Origin: Octopus vulgaris
Lineage: Eukaryota
Direction: 5' to 3'
Assembly: GCA_951406725.2 (NCBI GenBank)
Contig: OX597836.1
Coordinates: 15,004,001-15,068,000, forward strand
Length of the DNA: 64,000 nucleotides
Part shown: positions 6,937-62,794 of the stretch, piece by piece
Layout of the letters: each line of letters opens with the position of its first letter
Numbering within the stretch: the first letter of the stretch is position 1
Made by a program: the position numbers and the translations under genes
The notes under the pieces: model-generated
Told to the model about the DNA's origin: nothing
Database searches by the model: none
Seen by the model: the letters and a program-made list of their open reading frames with translations, nothing else

Positions 6937-7955
6937 AACACTGCCAGATCAGATTGGAGCCTGGTGCAGCCTCATGGCTTCCCAGACCCCAGTTGAACCA
7001 TCCAACCCATGCTAGCATAGAAAACTGACATTAAACGATGATGATGATGATGTATATATATATAGGCACAGGCATGGCATTATGGTAAGAAGCTTGCTTC
7101 CCTTTGGGAGCACCTTTAGCCCGCACACAGGATCCCGAATGGCCTCTGCAGATAGCTGTGGAGGTCACAACATTGCCCATGAATAGGCTGAAGGGACTCA
7201 ATGAGGAATATTGCTTGTACCTGGGCGATGCCGACACGGTACCCACTTTGATCTTGAATGAGGCATGGGTGATGGTGGAGTATGCGGACACAAGCGGTGT
7301 TGAGGAGGATTAGTGATAAGAGGTTGAAAAGCCTCGGTGTTATTGGAAGTTCCGAGTGTGGAAAGAAAGGTAAGAGGCTTAGCACCTCATTTTGTTATCA
7401 AATATTGGGAACAGTGTAGAGGTTTTCCCGAGAACATTGATCTCTATATTGTTCATGAGGTAACAAACCTCTACACTGTTCACAATATTCGATAACAAAA
7501 GGAGGTGCTAAGCCTCTTACCTTTCCTTCCAAACTCGGAACTTCCAATAACACTGAGGCTTTTCAGCCTCTTATCACTAATCCTCCTCAACACCGCTTGT
7601 GTCCGCATACTCCACCATCACCCATGCCTCATTCAAGATCAAAGTGGGTACCGTGTCGGCATCACCCAGGTACAAGCAATATTCCTCATTGAGTCCCTTC
7701 AGCCTATTCACGGGCAACGTTGTGACCTCCACAGCTATCTGCAGAGGCCATTCAGGATCCTGTGTGCGGGCTAAAGGTGCTCCCAAAGGGAAGCAAGCTT
7801 CTTACCATACTGCCACGCCTGTGCCTATAGATATACATTATCATCATCATCATCGTTTAACGTCCGTTTTCCATGCTAGCATGGGTTGGACGGTTTGACT
7901 GGGGTCTGGGAAGCCATGAGGCTGCTCCAGGCTCCAGTCTGATCTGGCAGTGTTT
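6937..7955. repeat. About 1-kb palindrome (arms about 6937-7425 and 7465-7955; 39-bp spacer)
   Basis: arms are reverse complements; mirrored ORFs 7104..7313(+) and 7577..7786(-). Confidence 0.93.
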
Positions 7956-20026: not shown

Positions 20027-20253
20027 ATATAAAATTAAGAATAATGACCACTAAAGTGGACACCTAATATGCTAAACATAGACGTCTAATTGCCATTACC
20101 ACGAAGAGTGTGTTCTCAAGAAAAATCTCAGCAAAATGCCAAAATGTAAAAATGATATTTTTCTTGAAAACACACTCTCCATGGTAATGGTGATTTGATA
20201 TCTATGTTTAGCATATTAGGTGTCCACTTTAGTGGTCATTCCTCTTAATTTTG

Positions 20254-20258
<5 letters not shown>
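20027..20258. repeat. Imperfect palindrome with ~105-bp arms
   Basis: AATGACCACTAAAGTGGACACCTAATATGCTAAACATAGA mirrored at about 20201-20240. Confidence 0.85.
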
Positions 20259-22267: not shown

Positions 22268-23151
22268 GTATGTGGCCCTTTACTAATAACTAAAGTGTTG
22301 GGGTTGTTGTTGGGTGGTTCATGTTCAGATGTTTTGGGTGGGCGCGTATTCAGCACACAATTGTACATCATCCATCATCATCGTCATCGTTTAACGTCCG
22401 TTTTCCATGCTAGCATGGGTTGGACGGTTCAACTGGGGTCTGGGAAGCCAGGGGGCTGCTCCAGGCTCCAGTCTGATCTGGTAGAGTTTCTACAGCTGGA
22501 TGCCCTTCCTAATGCCAACCACTCCGTGAGTGTAGTGGGTGCTTTTTACATGCCACCTGCACAGGTGCCAGACGAGGCTGGCAAATGGCCACGATCGGAT
22601 GGTACTTTTTACGTGCCACCGGTACGGAGGCCAGTCGGGGCGACGCTGGCAACGGTCAATTTCAGATGGTTCTCTTACATGCCACCGGCACTGGAATTTA
22701 ATTCCTGGTGAGACGTTGTGTCCTTAAGCAAGACACTTTATTTCACATTGCTCCAGTCCACTCAGCTGGCAAAGTTCAGTTGTACCTGTAATTCAAAGAG
22801 CCAGCCATGTCATGCTGTGTCTCCTGGAGAACTATGCTGAGGGTTACGCGTATCTCTGGAGTCTCAACCACACGCATGTTAATTTCATAGGAGTGGCTGT
22901 GTGGTAAGTAGCTTGCTTACCAACCACATGGTTCCAGTTTCAGTCCCACTGCATGGCACCTTGGACAAGTGTCTTCTACTATAGCCTTGCGCCGACCAAA
23001 GCCTTGTGAGTGGATTTGGTAGACAGAAACTGAAAAAAACCTGTCGTATATATGTATAGTTAAAGTTAATCCAAACAAGAAAGCACAAAAAAACACAACA
23101 CTAGGACATGGAACAAATATAGTATTATTGGACGCTCAGGAAAGAAGGAGG

Positions 23152-23186
23152 GTTTAACGTTTCGAGCGGAGCTCTTTGTCGGAAAC
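23152..23186 (-). ncRNA. Degenerate hammerhead motif copy (core CCGACAA)
   Basis: same element as the copies above, with two core substitutions. Confidence 0.45.
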
Positions 23187-23527
23187 ATAGGAGAAGGGAA
23201 GACAAAGGAAAAAAAATCGCCAACAGTACACACGCGGTCACATTTTGAATGTATATATGTATATATATATTTGTGTATGTGTGTGTTAATTTTTGTTGTA
23301 TATCTAGAATCGCTTTATCTATTGTGACCATTTTTTTTTAAGACAGTCAGCTGTGATTTGAAGAAATTTAGCTGCTATTTCTAGTAGGCTGATTAACCAC
23401 AAAGTGGCCATCATTATTATAATTATTATTCTTGTTTATTTTCTGTTGTTTTTTTTTACCCCTCATTTTGTTTTTCTCCCACAATTTAATAAGATATTTC
23501 TCTCCCTCTCTCTCTCTCCTCCCACAG

Positions 23528-27871: not shown

Positions 27872-28070
27872 AATGTGACCGTGTGTGTACCGTTGGCAAT
27901 TTTTTTTCCTCTGTTTTCCCTTCTCTGGATCTTTCCTTCTCCTATGTTTCCGACGAAGAGCTCCGCTCGAAACGTTAAACCCTCCTTCTTTCCTGAGCGT
28001 CCAATAATACTATATTTGTCCCACGTCCTCGCGTTGTTGTGTTTTTTTGTGCTTTCTTGTTTGGATTAAC
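27872..28070 (+). mobile_element. About 200-bp hammerhead-bearing non-coding element (Penelope pseudo-LTR-like) in a (TA)n tract; other copies at 23059-23265 (-) and 40461-40665 (-)
   Basis: three alignable copies, each within the microsatellite of a family-A SINE. Confidence 0.7.
27946..27980 (+). ncRNA. Hammerhead motif copy with U4C core variant
   Basis: GTTTCCGACGAAGAGCTCCGCTCGAAACGTTAAAC; identical to 40559-40593 except one base. Confidence 0.55.
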
Positions 28071-28072
28071 TT

Positions 28073-28103
<31 letters not shown>

Positions 28104-28308
28104 GATACAGCACGGAGTTTTGTCAATGAACAGGTCACAGTCTCAAAGCGGCGAAAATATTTCGACAAATTAAATTTAAATGTTGAAGTGAATCTAACGG
28201 TTTTTGTGTGTTTCTTAAATGGCTTATAAACACCTACCACGCTGCAATTGTTTTCGTTCCAGCACACGATCTCAGATCAGGTCAATTGCTATGCAAGTAC
28301 ATCTCCAT

Positions 28309-28342
<34 letters not shown>

Positions 28343-38700: not shown

Positions 38701-39625
38701 CTGAAATAAAAAGAGAGAGAGAGAAAACCATTACTGATATCTCCTAGTTAGGTCTGTGGTGGTGGTGAAGGAAATAATGAAGGCACTGTAAGAGAAGAAG
38801 AAAGTTAAGGTACCAGGTGTAGGGTATGTGTGAGAGGCTGGATTGGGCCAGTTTGAACATAAAACCGGCAGGCTATTTTAGCTGGATATTGCTGGTTTAG
38901 ATGCTAAAGGGTTAAATTTTTCAACATTTTCTACATTTAGAGAATAAATCTTTAAATGAAACAAAACACATATATAATATTAAATAAAATATATAACATG
39001 TATTTTATATATATATTTTTTATTTATGCACCCTTTTCAAGCCTAGCCAAGCTCATGGGCCCAGTTTCCCGGTTTAGGTGCCACATGTGTTCTCCCCAGC
39101 TGGACGGGAAGCCAGTCCATCGCAGCATTACTCAAGAAAGAGTGAGAGGAAGTCATGGCGAAAGAGTACAACAGGGGTCACTATGCACCCCCTGCCAGAG
39201 CCTCGTGGAGCTTTAAGGTGTTTTCGCTCAATAAACACACAACGCCCGGTCTAGGAATCGAAACCACGATCCTCCGACCACGAGTCCGCTGCCCTAACCA
39301 CTGGGCCATTGTGCCTTCACATTTATATATTATATATGATATATACTCTTTACCCTTTTACTTGTTTCAGTCATTTGACTGCGGTCATGCTGGAGCACTG
39401 CCTTTAGTCGAGCAAATTGACCCCAGGACTTATTCTTTGTAAGCTTTTTGTAAGCGACTTATTCTATCGGTCGCTTTTTGCCAAAAATAAAATACAGCAG
39501 AAGAAATTAAATTTTAAGAAATAACATAAACGAGCCAGTAAACTAATGAACAGGTTAATATATCAGCATTTTTTTTTGGAGGGGGGGTTAAGAATCTGGT
39601 GAATTCCAAAGACATGGCTACTTAC

Positions 39626-39704
39626 AGACTTATCTTTCATATTGCAGTAATCATCTCTGATCTGGAAATATAAGCCCAATAATTCTAGCAAATTCTTGAA
39701 ATCA
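39626..39704 (-). CDS. GGPS1: GGPS1 exon (DFKNLLELLGLYFQIRDDYCNMKDKS), second aspartate-rich motif
   Basis: ttcAG / GTAAGT; GLxFQIRDDY motif. Confidence 0.97.
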
Positions 39705-40423
39705 CTGAAAGGAAAATAAATAAAAAAAACATATTTAGAAGCTTTTATAGGAACAGGTGTAGTTGTGAGGTTTAAGAATCTTGCATCCCAATCACGTGGT
39801 TTTGGATCCAGTCCCACTGCATGGTACCTTGGACAAGTGTCTTTTATTATAACCCCAGGCCAACCAAAGCCTAGGGAGTGGATTTGGTAGAGGAAAACAG
39901 AGAGAAGTCCATTGTATGTATATATGTGATCGTTACCATCGTTGCCAGTGCCGCTGGATTGGCTCCTGTGCAGGTGGCACGTAAAAAACACCATTTGAGC
40001 ATGGCCGTTGCCAGTACCGCCTGATTGGCCCTCATGCCGGTGGCATGTAAAAGCACCTGCTACACTCTCGGAGTGGTTGGCATTAGGAAGGGCATCCAGC
40101 TGTAGAAACTCTGCCAGATCAAGATTGGAGCCTGGTGCTGCCATCTGGTTCGCCAGTCCTCAGTCAAATCTCCCAACCCATGCCAGCATGGAAAGCAGAC
40201 GTTAAACGATGATGATGATGATTTACTTGTCCCAGTCATTTGACTGTGGCCATGCTGGAGTACTGTCTTGAAGGGTTTTAGTCAAACAAATCAAATCAAA
40301 CCCAGGACTTATTTTTTAAAGCCTAGTACTTATTCTATCAGTCTCTTTTGCTGAACTTCTAAGTTACGGGGATGTAAACACACCAACACTGGTTGTTAAG
40401 CAGCAATGGGGACAAACACACAG

Positions 40424-40456
<33 letters not shown>

Positions 40457-40558
40457 CATAGTTAATCCAAACAAGAAAACACAAAATAGCACAACAACGT
40501 GAGGACGTGGAACAAATATAGTATTATTGGACACTCGGGAAAGAAGGGAAGAAGGAGG

Positions 40559-40593
40559 GTTTAACGTTTCGAGCGGAGCTCTTCGTCAGAAAC
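40559..40593 (-). ncRNA. Minimal type-I hammerhead ribozyme motif with intact core
   Basis: Minus strand reads GUUU-CUGACGA-A-GAGC-UCC-GCUC-GAAA-CG-UU-AAAC: CUGANGA and GAAA cores, stem I GUUU/AAAC, stem II GAGC/GCUC, palindromic loop-less stem III, GUU cleavage triplet. Confidence 0.7.
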
Positions 40594-41589
40594 ATAGGAG
40601 AAGGAAAGATCCAGAGAAGGGAAGACAGAGGAAAAAAAATCACCAATGGTACACACAAGGTCACATGACAGGCTTCTTTCAGTTTCTGTCTATCAAATCC
40701 ACTCACAGGTCTTTGTTTGGCCTTGCTGTGAAAACTGTGACAGCTGTGATTTATATTTTTGCAATCCTAAATTTGTGAGCTCATGGATGCTTGTGTCACA
40801 TTGTGCCACTTGTGCTGGTGCTCCTTAAAAGCACCCAGTACTCTCTGTAAAGGGTTTGGTGTTAGAAAGGGCATCCAGCCATAGAAACCATGCCAAAACA
40901 GACATGAGGACCAGGCAGCTCTTCAGTTTGTCAGCTATTGACAAAACTGTCCAACTCATGCCAGGATGGAAAATGGACATTAAATGATGACAATGATGAT
41001 GAAGTGGAGGCACATGGCCTAGTGGTTAGAGCAGCGGACTCGTGGTCGAGGGATCGCAGGTTCGAATCTCAGACCGGGCGATGTGTGTGTTTATGAGCGA
41101 AACACCTAAGCTCCACGTGGCTCCGGCAGAAGGTAATGGTGAACCTCTGCTGACTCTTTCGCCACAACTTTCTCTCACTCTTTCCTCCTGCATCTTACAG
41201 CTTACTTGCAATGGACCGGTGTCCCATCCAGGTGGGGAACCTATACGCCAAGGAAACCGGTAAACTGGCCCTTATGGGCCAGGCATGGCTCAAGAAGGAA
41301 CAAACATACAATGATGATGAATAATGATGGTGGTGGTGGTGGTAATGATGAAATTTTTTTAGTTTCTTTTTTTAAATTTTAGATCCACAGCAAAAAAAAA
41401 ACATTCAAAAAAGAAATCACTGTTGTCGCAGTTTTCACAGCTGCTTTTCCATGCTGGTGTGGGTTAGACAAAGACTGTTGAGAGGATTCCAACCAACATC
41501 AAACAATCTATGTACCAGAGGTCAGCTGATTGACCCTAGACTAATAACTCCACAATAACAACAAAACGCAACAGGATCCTACTTGCAAT

Positions 41590-44328: not shown

Positions 44329-44430
44329 TGCGAATGACCATAGCTTTGTATTCTTCCTCGGTTGGACAGTGGACAGCATCACGCCAATAAATATCCATTC
44401 CCTGGCCACGATGTAACTCCAGCATTTGTT
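44329..44430 (-). CDS. GGPS1: GGPS1 exon ([34 protein letters not shown])
   Basis: ctcAG / GTAAGA; LHxGQGxDIYWRD motif. Confidence 0.97.
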
Positions 44431-61293: not shown

Positions 61294-61399
61294 ATAATTG
61301 TAGTAAAACGATTGAGTGGACTATTCCATCCTCTAATGGTAAGATAAATACCAATAGTGAGTTTAGAAAGCAGAAGAAGAGTAGATAGATTCCACCCTC

Positions 61400-61670
61400 A
61401 TATACATAAGAGGCCCTGAAATAGCAATATAGTCTGGTATAATGTTCCCTTCAACTGAGCTATATCCACCAGTATATATAAGAAATTTATGGCAATTTTA
61501 GATAAAAGCTTCCCTGAATCCCATAGGTATAATAGAATATTTTCCTGTAAAACAAATCAGAATTTCATATTCTACCCTCCCGAATATAGGTACCATCATA
61601 GCCAGGTTTAATAGAAAGAATATAAAATTAGTAAGAGGAATTAGTAATAATAATATTAGTATTGTCAATA
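61400..61670 (+). mobile_element. Penelope-like element remnant (RT to GIY-YIG linker)
   Basis: IVWYNVPFN...KKFMAILDKSFPESHRYNRIF...IRISYSTLPNIGTII, with a stop and a frameshift. Confidence 0.72.
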
Positions 61671-62329
61671 CTGGTTTAACCCTTTAGTTACTGTATTTAT
61701 TTTGAGATGCTCTGTGTTTCTTTCAATTACTTTAAATATTACAAAGAATTTAGTAAAATAACTTAGTTATCATTCAGTTGGTGTTAGGAACATAAATTTT
61801 CTGATTATTTTTGTATAAATTCTTATTATTTTGTTTTCTTATTTTGGTATGCTTACCTTATTAACCTCTTATCCTTTATAAATTGTTATTTTATAGAAAC
61901 CGCCAAATAATTAATTAATTAAATAAAGAAGAGGTTCTACATAATAGTAATCTTCCTTTTAATGTTTATAATTGATACATACACACCTTTTAGCTATTTT
62001 GGTTATATCATTTTCTTGAATTTTAAAAAATTTTATTTCATTTTTATACAACAATAATATCGCTTAAAAACGTTCACCCATTGAGCCCCTAATATTTTTT
62101 TCTGTATCTCATTATAGTATCTTAAGTTTCATAGTGTCTTGCCCCTTTAACTGGTAATTAACATCATGAATTAATGTCGATCCTTACCCTACCTCTTTTT
62201 TTTATAGACAGTTATTTATATCTAATTGACTCTTTCTAAAGCTTTTTTTTTTTCTCTTGTGGGTAAAGGAATACCTATGACAATATTTATGACTAATAGC
62301 TAGTCATGAGCAGACAACTCCCTTTTGCT

Positions 62330-62740
62330 CTTTATTCTAAATATACAGTCTTCTAGTCTCAGATTTTAGTAGATGATAAAGAGATAAATAAATTGGAAAT
62401 GAATTACATACAACCCTATGACCCCACTATGCTCCATGCTATTCTAAGAAATTGTAGTCTGTTTTTCTTAGCCATTCTTGCAACAATAGTGACAACATGA
62501 ATTTATACATCTTCCTCTGTTGAAATATTTAAGAAAAATTATATTAATGTAGCCTACCTGTTGAAGTTCCACATATTTTTTTGTGCAGCTGAAGATAGCA
62601 CTGTATTCAAATTGATGTAATGATTGCATTGTTCAATGAAATGGAGCCACTTAAAATGGTCATACTGCATTACTACTTGATATCCTGTTGCTTATTTTGA
62701 TTTTATTCACCTTACTTCAAGCTGTGCAGATAATACCGGA
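62330..62740 (-). mobile_element. Probable decayed Penelope-like GIY-YIG region
   Basis: fragmentary resemblance (KIK.RISS, LNNA) across frameshifts. Confidence 0.4.
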
Positions 62741-62794
62741 CTGACTTGGTGCTTCAATTTAAGTACCTAATTCAACTGAATCTTAATTACTTCT

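What the first reader, a model, noticed from the sequence alone, without database searches (positions are those of the whole stretch)
40461..40665. Hammerhead-ribozyme-bearing mini-element that sits in the (TA)n tract of SINEs; core-intact copy is sense in a GGPS1 intron
Seen: a ~200-bp non-coding element occurs three times (23059-23265 -, 27872-28070 +, 40461-40665 -), each time inside the central (TA)n/(CA)n tract of a family-A SINE. It carries GUUU-CUGACGA-A-GAGC(UCC)GCUC-GAAA-CG-UU-AAAC. Established: this matches a type-I hammerhead (CUGANGA and GAAA cores, NUH site). A tiny palindromic stem III is typical of minimal hammerheads in Penelope-like element pseudo-LTRs, which are thought to cleave as dimers, and an extra A after A9 is known in some natural hammerheads. 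Inference: a non-autonomous, microsatellite-targeting, ribozyme-carrying retroelement using SINEs as landing pads, mobilised by Penelope-like elements (remnants at 61.4-62.7 kb). The intact copy would be transcribed within GGPS1 pre-mRNA.
Basis: partly seen in the sequence, partly recalled or inferred. Interest (0 to 1): 0.82.

Follow-up and report, generated by a model that had tools for sequence, protein, structure and literature searches.

The report
Penelope retroelement end with variant hammerhead
The 200-base element is the hammerhead-bearing end repeat of a Penelope-like jumping gene, present in thousands of lone copies beside TA repeats rather than specifically in SINEs; most copies carry a non-standard ribozyme core, and the "intact" copy in the GGPS1 intron likely got its standard letter by ordinary mutation and is probably inert.

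Summary
The three copies, the hammerhead-shaped motif and the sense position in a GGPS1-like intron are real. The unit is the pseudo-LTR (pLTR) of a Penelope-like element with RT, CX2-5CxxC linker and GIY-YIG domains (Neptune type), which it flanks. The core 39-mer has 3,202 exact copies with CCGACGA (U4C) and 780 with canonical CUGACGA; 20 of 24 ORF-linked motifs have C4. The 40.5-kb copy has C4-lineage alleles and 6 of 12 CpGs decayed, so its U4 is probably deamination. Copies end in (TA)n (35 of 40) but are not SINE-enriched (6 of 69 versus 32 of 145 other TA tracts). Their 5' ends cluster at one boundary, not at the cleavage site. The remnant at 61.4-62.7 kb is not the parent. Minimal pLTR hammerheads and Neptune microsatellite bias are published, and the scan noted similar solo pLTRs in other genomes. 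The only new point is the dominant U4C core. Cleavage is untested.

The parts
40460..40666 (-). Solo pLTR (about 200 bp) of a Neptune-type Penelope-like element; C4-lineage alleles, 6 of 12 CpGs decayed
   Evidence: 90-93% identical to pLTRs flanking the RT/GIY-YIG ORF in L101 and L106; diagnostic columns
40559..40593 (-). Minimal type I hammerhead motif: stem I 40593-40590 with 40562-40559, core CUGACGA 40589-40583 (U4 at 40588), extra A 40582, stem II 40581-40571, GAAA 40570-40567, palindromic ACGU, predicted cut between 40563 and 40562
   Evidence: sequence; architecture as in PMC4209133
40429..40459 (-). (TA)n(TG)n tract at the 3' end of the copy; central tract of the host SINE
40667..40722 (-). 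3' remnant of the SINE-A head half, abutting the element's 5' end
   Evidence: 86% over 56 nt
40222..40428 (-). SINE-A tail half
   Evidence: 76% over 211 columns
27872..28072 (+). Second solo pLTR, majority C4 core (CCGACGA) at 27946-27980, followed by (TA)n; downstream of the apparent GGPS1 stop
23063..23249 (-). Third solo pLTR, core C4 plus G8 changed to A (23186-23152), internal deletions; SINE-A head adjacent on one side only
39620..39703 (-). GGPS1-like coding exon downstream of the 40.5-kb copy (ends approximate)
   Evidence: PF00348 positions 171-194, E 2e-5
44330..44428 (-). GGPS1-like coding exon upstream of the 40.5-kb copy (ends approximate)
   Evidence: PF00348 positions 114-143, E 8e-4

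Best explanation
The element is a lone copy of the hammerhead-bearing end repeat (pLTR) of a Penelope-like retrotransposon with RT and GIY-YIG domains, likely inserted at a (TA)n tract by that element's own enzyme from uncleaved RNA, and this intronic copy is probably inert. Shown: the same unit flanks ORF-bearing elements; solo copies end in (TA)n; most start at one boundary about 80-90 nt upstream of stem II; C4 is the majority core. Inferred mechanism: transcripts start at that boundary inside the pLTR. The endonuclease nicks (TA)n. Reverse transcription starts internally at the UAUAUA just past the pLTR, which could pair with the nicked target, and runs to the RNA's 5' end, giving a unit-length pLTR. 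Read-through transcripts give the rarer full elements. The ribozyme likely works only as a dimer or with protein help, and cleavage is not needed for insertion. After insertion the copies decay neutrally, and CpG deamination turns C4 into U4, as probably happened at 40588. SINE central tracts are hit only because they are TA tracts.
For: Parent: 11 of 30 loci of an N-terminal ORF query have the unit upstream on the same strand. Of the 9 fetched loci without an upstream copy, 8 have it downstream of the ORF, and 6 of 20 fetched regions have it at both ends of RT+EN. 10 of 11 upstream copies join the ORF side through the same junction. The ORF has YGRYIDD, CSRSRCNTC and GLIYCIKCNLC..YIGQT..HL..HF. 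722 homologues at E <= 1e-20; the two scanned carry RVT_1 and GIY-YIG. Target: 35 of 40 core-selected copies end in TA repeats; SINE adjacency 6 of 69 versus 32 of 145 other TA tracts. Boundary: 26 of 40 start within -20..+5, 2 extend further, 12 are shorter. No excess of copies starting at the cut site: 27 places, against 53 at a non-cleavage TA site and 12 matches at a non-TA site. Core: 3,202 C4 versus 780 U4; 20 of 24 ORF-linked motifs C4, and in L106 and L120 the two pLTRs of one element differ C4/U4. The 40.5-kb copy has the C4-group allele at the four sharpest non-core diagnostic columns. CpG decay is equal inside (13 of 145) and outside (14 of 173) the hammerhead. Literature: monomers inactive, dimers weakly active (PMC4209133); internal RT initiation, protein-assisted cleavage, insertion unaffected by core mutants (PMC11167929); microsatellite bias in Neptune (PMC8557442).
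Against: U4 copies (780) exceed the two CpG-decay controls (177 and 134), so a real U4 sub-lineage of roughly 600 copies exists, and the 40.5-kb copy shares some weaker columns with it. In that copy 5 of 7 CpGs outside the hammerhead but only 1 of 5 inside have decayed; this is post hoc and one copy, but it is what selection would look like. The transcription start and the priming step have no RNA evidence. In the anole element RT starts at a site not homologous to the cut DNA (PMC11167929), unlike the pairing I propose. Pfam hits on the parent's own frames are below gathering, and no tree was built to separate Neptune from Nematis. Solo copies might also serve as their own templates.
Confidence: 0.85

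Rival explanations
1. The 200-nt unit is a self-standing non-autonomous element (SINE-like or retrozyme-like) that arose from the pLTR and is now transcribed from solo or tandem copies and copied in trans by the Penelope-like enzyme.
For: Fixed 5' boundary; large excess of the pLTR over the ORF-side flank in summed contig depth (not a copy number); retrozymes are reported as pLTR derivatives (10.64898/2026.07.22.740005, passages).
Against: Only 4 of 69 copies have a same-strand neighbour within about 500 nt, and the neighbours seen in the flanks are separated by TA tracts. Units are not bounded by the cut site. The variants seen in solo copies also occur in ORF-linked pLTRs.
Confidence: 0.2
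2. One reading: a mini-element that uses SINE (TA)n tracts as landing pads, with an intact, active ribozyme in the GGPS1 intron that cleaves the pre-mRNA.
For: The 40.5-kb copy is in a SINE tract, is sense to the gene and has a canonical core with its four other core CpGs intact.
Against: No SINE enrichment. U4 is likely CpG decay. No partner copy on the same strand inside the gene's coding span in this window. GUU site and 4-bp stems. The predicted hammerhead fold is about 3 kcal/mol above the monomer MFE and the active dimer about 17 above the MFE dimer (tertiary contacts are not modelled). Monomers are inactive in print (PMC4209133).
Confidence: 0.04
3. The motif in this family is a dead relic: U4C killed it early and it persists only by hitch-hiking in a young family.
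For: No sign of cleaved templates; no stem covariation can be seen within the family, which is nearly invariant; U4C considerably lowers activity in vitro (PMC3088659, passage).
Against: The diverged relative L120 (73-76% identical) keeps the core and stems with a changed loop, and has C4 in one pLTR. A second, separate hammerhead cluster is also all C4 in the sample (11 of 11). The viroid U4C variant stays infectious (PMC3088659).
Confidence: 0.25

Closest known systems
Minimal hammerheads (min-HHR) in pLTRs of metazoan Penelope-like elements (Cervera and De la Pena 2014, PMC4209133)
   Same: Type I, no real stem III, palindromic 15.2-16.2, extra nucleotide between 9 and 10.1, G10.1-C11.1, short stem I; thousands of mostly single motifs per genome attributed to truncated elements.
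   Different: The majority core here is CCGACGA (U4C); the core variant named in the parts I read is U3-A8. Their supplements were not seen.
Neptune-clade Penelope-like elements (as described in Craig et al. 2021, PMC8557442)
   Same: RT followed by CX2-5CxxC linker and C-terminal GIY-YIG with CCHH; pLTR partial tandems; microsatellite insertion bias.
   Different: Long (CA-rich, 1-3 kb) 3' UTR here; no 30-40 bp tail seen on 72 solo copies; clade not confirmed by a tree.
Poseidon element of the green anole (Frangieh et al. 2024, PMC11167929)
   Same: pLTR hammerhead, AT-rich targets, copies made from uncleaved RNA with internal RT start.
   Different: There the hammerhead overlaps the ORF start and the RT start is not homologous to the target; here the 3' junction is a TA run shared by element and target.
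Non-LTR retrozymes (10.64898/2026.07.22.740005)
   Same: Short non-coding hammerhead units related to pLTRs, with dispersed monomers.
   Different: Defined there by tandem units each with a complete hammerhead; here 65 of 69 sampled copies have no same-strand neighbour within about 500 nt.
Natural U4C hammerhead variant of a viroid (Ambros and Flores 1998, seen only as cited in PMC3088659)
   Same: Same core change; said to lower activity in vitro but allow infectivity.
   Different: A rare viroid variant in a full-stem hammerhead; here it is the majority state of a minimal hammerhead in a high-copy animal retroelement.

Membership tests
Minimal type I hammerhead of Penelope-like elements | Core CUGANGA ... 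GAAA ... NUH | tested here: inconclusive
   Met in the 40.5-kb copy and 780 exact copies; not met (U4C) in 3,202 exact copies and 20 of 24 ORF-linked motifs
Minimal type I hammerhead of Penelope-like elements | Extra nucleotide between 9 and 10.1, G10.1-C11.1 pair, palindromic 15.2-16.2 | tested here: met
   A, G-C and ACGU in the sequence; features listed in PMC4209133
Minimal type I hammerhead of Penelope-like elements | Stems I and II supported by covariation | tested here: inconclusive
   Nearly invariant within this family. Among 50 other motifs of the same shape in G000 (21 clusters), stem I bp 1-3 pair 0.59 versus 0.42 shuffled, and stem II bp 3 0.52 versus 0.31; slid controls 0.21-0.39
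Minimal type I hammerhead of Penelope-like elements | Located in the pLTR of an RT/GIY-YIG element | tested here: met
Minimal type I hammerhead of Penelope-like elements | Site-specific self-cleavage (dimer or protein-assisted) | not testable with these tools
   No assay; no genomic excess of copies starting at the cut site
Rfam hammerhead families | Match to an Rfam hammerhead model | tested here: not met
   No hammerhead among 54 hits at E <= 1
EN+ Penelope-like element, Neptune/Nematis type | Single ORF with RT then C-terminal GIY-YIG with CCHH | tested here: met
   Motifs in broken frames of L104-L112; intact homologues P0001 and P0008 hit RVT_1 and GIY-YIG
EN+ Penelope-like element, Neptune/Nematis type | CX2-5CxxC linker before the endonuclease | tested here: met
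   CSRSRCNTC in 6 of 7 copies examined
EN+ Penelope-like element, Neptune/Nematis type | Direct pLTRs from partial tandem arrangement | tested here: met
   Both ends in 6 of 20 regions, at least one end in 19 of 20
Neptune clade specifically | RT phylogeny with named Neptune references | not tested
   No named reference sequences were available from the calls
Non-LTR retrozyme | Tandem units with a hammerhead in each | tested here: not met
   4 of 69 with a same-strand neighbour within about 500 nt
Non-LTR retrozyme | Circular RNA monomers | not testable with these tools
   Only assembled contigs were available
SINE-targeting element | Enrichment in SINE central tracts over other TA tracts | tested here: not met
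   6 of 69 versus 32 of 145, Fisher p 0.02 in the depleted direction; 6 of 70 versus 36 of 150 by other cut-offs

The most novel reading that the evidence does not exclude
Penelope-like lineages in this genome have fixed an attenuated U4C hammerhead at least twice, because RNA that is not cut is the better template. The C4 lineage out-amplified its U4 sister about 4 to 1 as unit-length pLTRs, made by priming on the element's own UAUAUA at a nicked (TA)n. Searches that demand CUGANGA would miss most such ribozymes, and the family is a natural test of whether these hammerheads help or hinder transposition.
Probability: 0.25. Interest if true: 0.5.

Novelty: new member of a known kind. Interest (0 to 1): 0.25.

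Why it matters
The role of pLTR hammerheads is open: one paper suggests they may merely parasitise the elements (PMC8557442), another finds them dispensable for insertion in vitro (PMC11167929). A high-copy family with sister lineages that differ at one core base, and whose copies show no trace of cleaved templates, is a convenient natural comparison. The finding as given, an active ribozyme landing in SINEs and cutting GGPS1 pre-mRNA, is not supported. The locus itself is one of thousands of decaying copies.

Tried and rejected
Rfam scan: no hammerhead hit. PDB sequence search with the RT frame: nothing meaningful. SINE targeting: rejected; BLAST misses very decayed SINE halves, and the baseline tracts come from the same loci and the window. 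Simple CpG decay as the source of all U4 copies: rejected, since 780 far exceeds 134-177. Cleavage-site-defined 5' ends: rejected against a TA-microhomology control; duplicate listings were removed by hand (29 to 27 and 77 to 53). The 61.4-62.7 kb remnant as parent: no blastn or tblastn match to the parent, none from 120 homologues in that region, no Pfam hit on two frames; it is a different repeat, also seen in L033 and L181. PLE protein next to the other hammerhead families: no tblastn hit in 50 loci of 1-3 kb, so their link to Penelope-like elements is not shown. Whether C4 is favoured in those other families is unclear: 422 U, 88 C, 43 A/G with 17 control hits, which transition bias could explain. 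Sequencing runs: no RNA holder listed; contigs only, no ends called. Lunse et al. 2017 on PLE hammerhead variants is not held, so a prior report of U4C there cannot be excluded. The exon expected between the 44.4-kb and 39.7-kb exons was not located.

Full report
Observation. Three copies of a unit of about 200 bp lie at 40460-40666 (-), 27872-28072 (+) and 23063-23249 (-). Rfam finds no hammerhead in the window at E <= 1. The 40.5-kb copy is sense between two exons of a polyprenyl-synthetase gene (PF00348 positions 114-143 and 171-194). Calling it GGPS1 rests on recalled motifs. The other two copies lie beyond the apparent stop near 36.35 kb. The host genome G000 has 2.8 Gb in 227 contigs. 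Its SINEs look octopus-like to me from recall; no call establishes this.

SINE context. Only the 40.5-kb copy has both SINE halves around it. The 23-kb copy has the head only, and the 28-kb copy has the head about 275 bp away behind another unit. Of 40 copies chosen only by the 39-mer core, 35 are followed by TA repeats. Of 69 copies outside the window, 6 have a SINE-A inner end adjacent, against 32 of 145 other TA tracts in the same loci and the window (Fisher p 0.02, depleted direction). Other cut-offs give 6 of 70 and 36 of 150. The target is (TA)n, not the SINE.

The parent. The flank of one copy (L032) held a frame with motifs I recalled from Penelope-like N-termini. A search with it gave 30 loci, 11 of them with the unit upstream on the same strand. 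I fetched 20 of the 30: all 11 with an upstream copy and 9 without. Eight of those 9 have the unit downstream of the ORF; 19 of 20 have it at one end at least, and 6 have it at both ends of RT and endonuclease. Ten of the 11 upstream copies continue into the ORF side through the same TA-containing junction, so they belong to the element. The ORF copies are broken by frameshifts. They show YGRYIDD, a CSRSRCNTC linker in 6 of 7 copies examined, and a GIY-YIG with CCHH. Their own Pfam hits are below gathering. There are 722 longer homologues at E <= 1e-20, up to 58% identical, and the two I scanned carry RVT_1 and GIY-YIG. By the description in PMC8557442 (passages) this is the Neptune/Nematis layout; I built no tree. 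The window holds nothing of the parent except the three pLTRs. The remnant at 61.4-62.7 kb is another repeat family.

The core. Exact 39-mer counts in G000 are 3,202 for C4 and 780 for U4. Single CpG-decay controls give 177 and 134. So C4 is the majority, and a real U4 sub-lineage of roughly 600 copies exists, with linked alleles. Among 24 ORF-linked motifs (two spurious regex hits dropped), position 4 is C in 20, U in 3 and A in 1. In L106 and L120 the two pLTRs of one element differ at this base. In contigs of four public runs labelled as four organisms, T stands at this place in 22-29% of summed depth; this says nothing on expression. The 40.5-kb copy carries the C4-group allele at the four sharpest non-core diagnostic columns and has 6 of 12 CpGs decayed, the most among 43 copies aligned, although the 40 comparison copies were selected for an exact core 39-mer. 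Its U4 is thus most simply a deamination. Against this, 5 of 7 CpGs outside but only 1 of 5 inside the hammerhead have decayed in this copy. That is post hoc, and across 29 other copies decay is equal inside and outside (13 of 145, 14 of 173).

Is it a hammerhead? The layout matches the minimal hammerheads of PMC4209133 (parts 1 and 2 of 4 read; supplements not seen): extra base after A9, G10.1-C11.1, palindromic 15.2-16.2. Within the family the stems hardly vary. A degenerate pattern excluding this family found 510 motifs of the same shape against 6 controls. In 50 of them (30 C4 loci and 20 U4 loci that I picked from the first 100 listed), stem I base pairs 1-3 and stem II pair 3 pair more often than shuffled, also with one member per cluster (0.59 versus 0.42; 0.52 versus 0.31). 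Stem I pair 4 and stem II pair 4 do not. One cluster of 11 is all C4, though the sample was enriched for C4. ViennaRNA puts the hammerhead fold about 3 kcal/mol above the monomer MFE and the active dimer about 17 above the MFE dimer. U4C is a known natural viroid variant that lowers activity in vitro yet allows infection (PMC3088659, passages; the original was not read). Searches for 'U4C' with hammerhead terms and for CYGANGA/CCGANGA words found no report for Penelope-like elements; one virome paper uses CYGANGA as its descriptor (PMC13481778, passages). Lunse et al. 2017 was not available.

How copies arise. Of 40 core-selected copies, 26 start within -20..+5 of one boundary, 12 are shorter and 2 longer. 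None of 72 solo copies carries the ORF-side continuation, and 4 of 69 have a same-strand neighbour within about 500 nt. Copies that begin at the predicted cut site after a TA run number 27, against 53 at a non-cleavage TA site and 12 matches at a non-TA site, so cleavage products are not over-used as templates. This fits PMC11167929 (passages and the second part of the main text): internal RT initiation, AT-rich nicking, a protein-assisted hammerhead, and insertion unaffected by core mutants. PMC6765202 (passages) states that transcription starts in the upstream pLTR. I infer that the boundary is the transcription start, that RT starts at the UAUAUA after the pLTR on a nicked (TA)n, and that the product is a unit-length pLTR. 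These steps are untested, and the anole study found no homology between target and RT start.

Comparison and verdict. It works like, and by the tested features is, a solo pLTR with a minimal hammerhead motif of a Neptune-type Penelope-like element. Single motifs by the thousand and microsatellite bias are in print (PMC4209133, PMC8557442). It fails the tandem criterion for retrozymes (10.64898/2026.07.22.740005, first part and passages; supplements closed). An octopus repeat annotation lists recently active Penelope-like families and does not mention hammerheads (PMC13282606, passages); searches found no paper on this family. Earlier notes of this scan report similar solo pLTRs in other genomes (unchecked). 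What remains of interest is the dominant U4C core and the clean negative for cleaved templates. Interest 0.25; new member of a known kind.

Noticed in passing
window 28101-28310: A second unit of about 200 bp inserted between TA tracts right after the 28-kb copy. Copies at 88-92% identity occur in L027, L064, L166 and L189, three of them as inverted pairs, which recalls the end of another TA-targeting Penelope-like family; no hammerhead core is obvious.
   Followed up: partly
G000, loci L121, L123, L124, L127, L128, L133, L134, L137, L141, L147, L148: A separate cluster of minimal hammerhead motifs whose 11 sampled members all have C4; a possible second fixation of U4C.
   Followed up: partly
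L102:both pLTRs (G000:C1:91503000-91511000): Both pLTRs of one element share C3 changed to U with G8 unchanged, so an element with a broken C3-G8 pair was apparently still copied.
   Followed up: no
window 61300-62760: Decayed repeat ending in a TA tract, 74-79% identical to stretches of L033 and L181; faint Penelope-like protein traces by recall, no Pfam hit; not the parent family.
   Followed up: partly
L106:4500-7100 (oriented): The parent's 3' UTR is 1-3 kb, very rich in CA repeats, with an internal duplication of several hundred bases.
   Followed up: no
window 7055-7835: Inverted repeat with 371-nt arms, 96% complementary, 39-nt spacer.
   Followed up: no
window 20028-20255: Long hairpin-like stretch that scores 73 bits against a plant miRNA model (far below gathering); probably a MITE-like inverted repeat.
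   Followed up: no
L063:1262-2880: A different Penelope-like RT frame abuts a solo pLTR copy, suggesting that several TA-targeting families pile into the same tracts.
   Followed up: no
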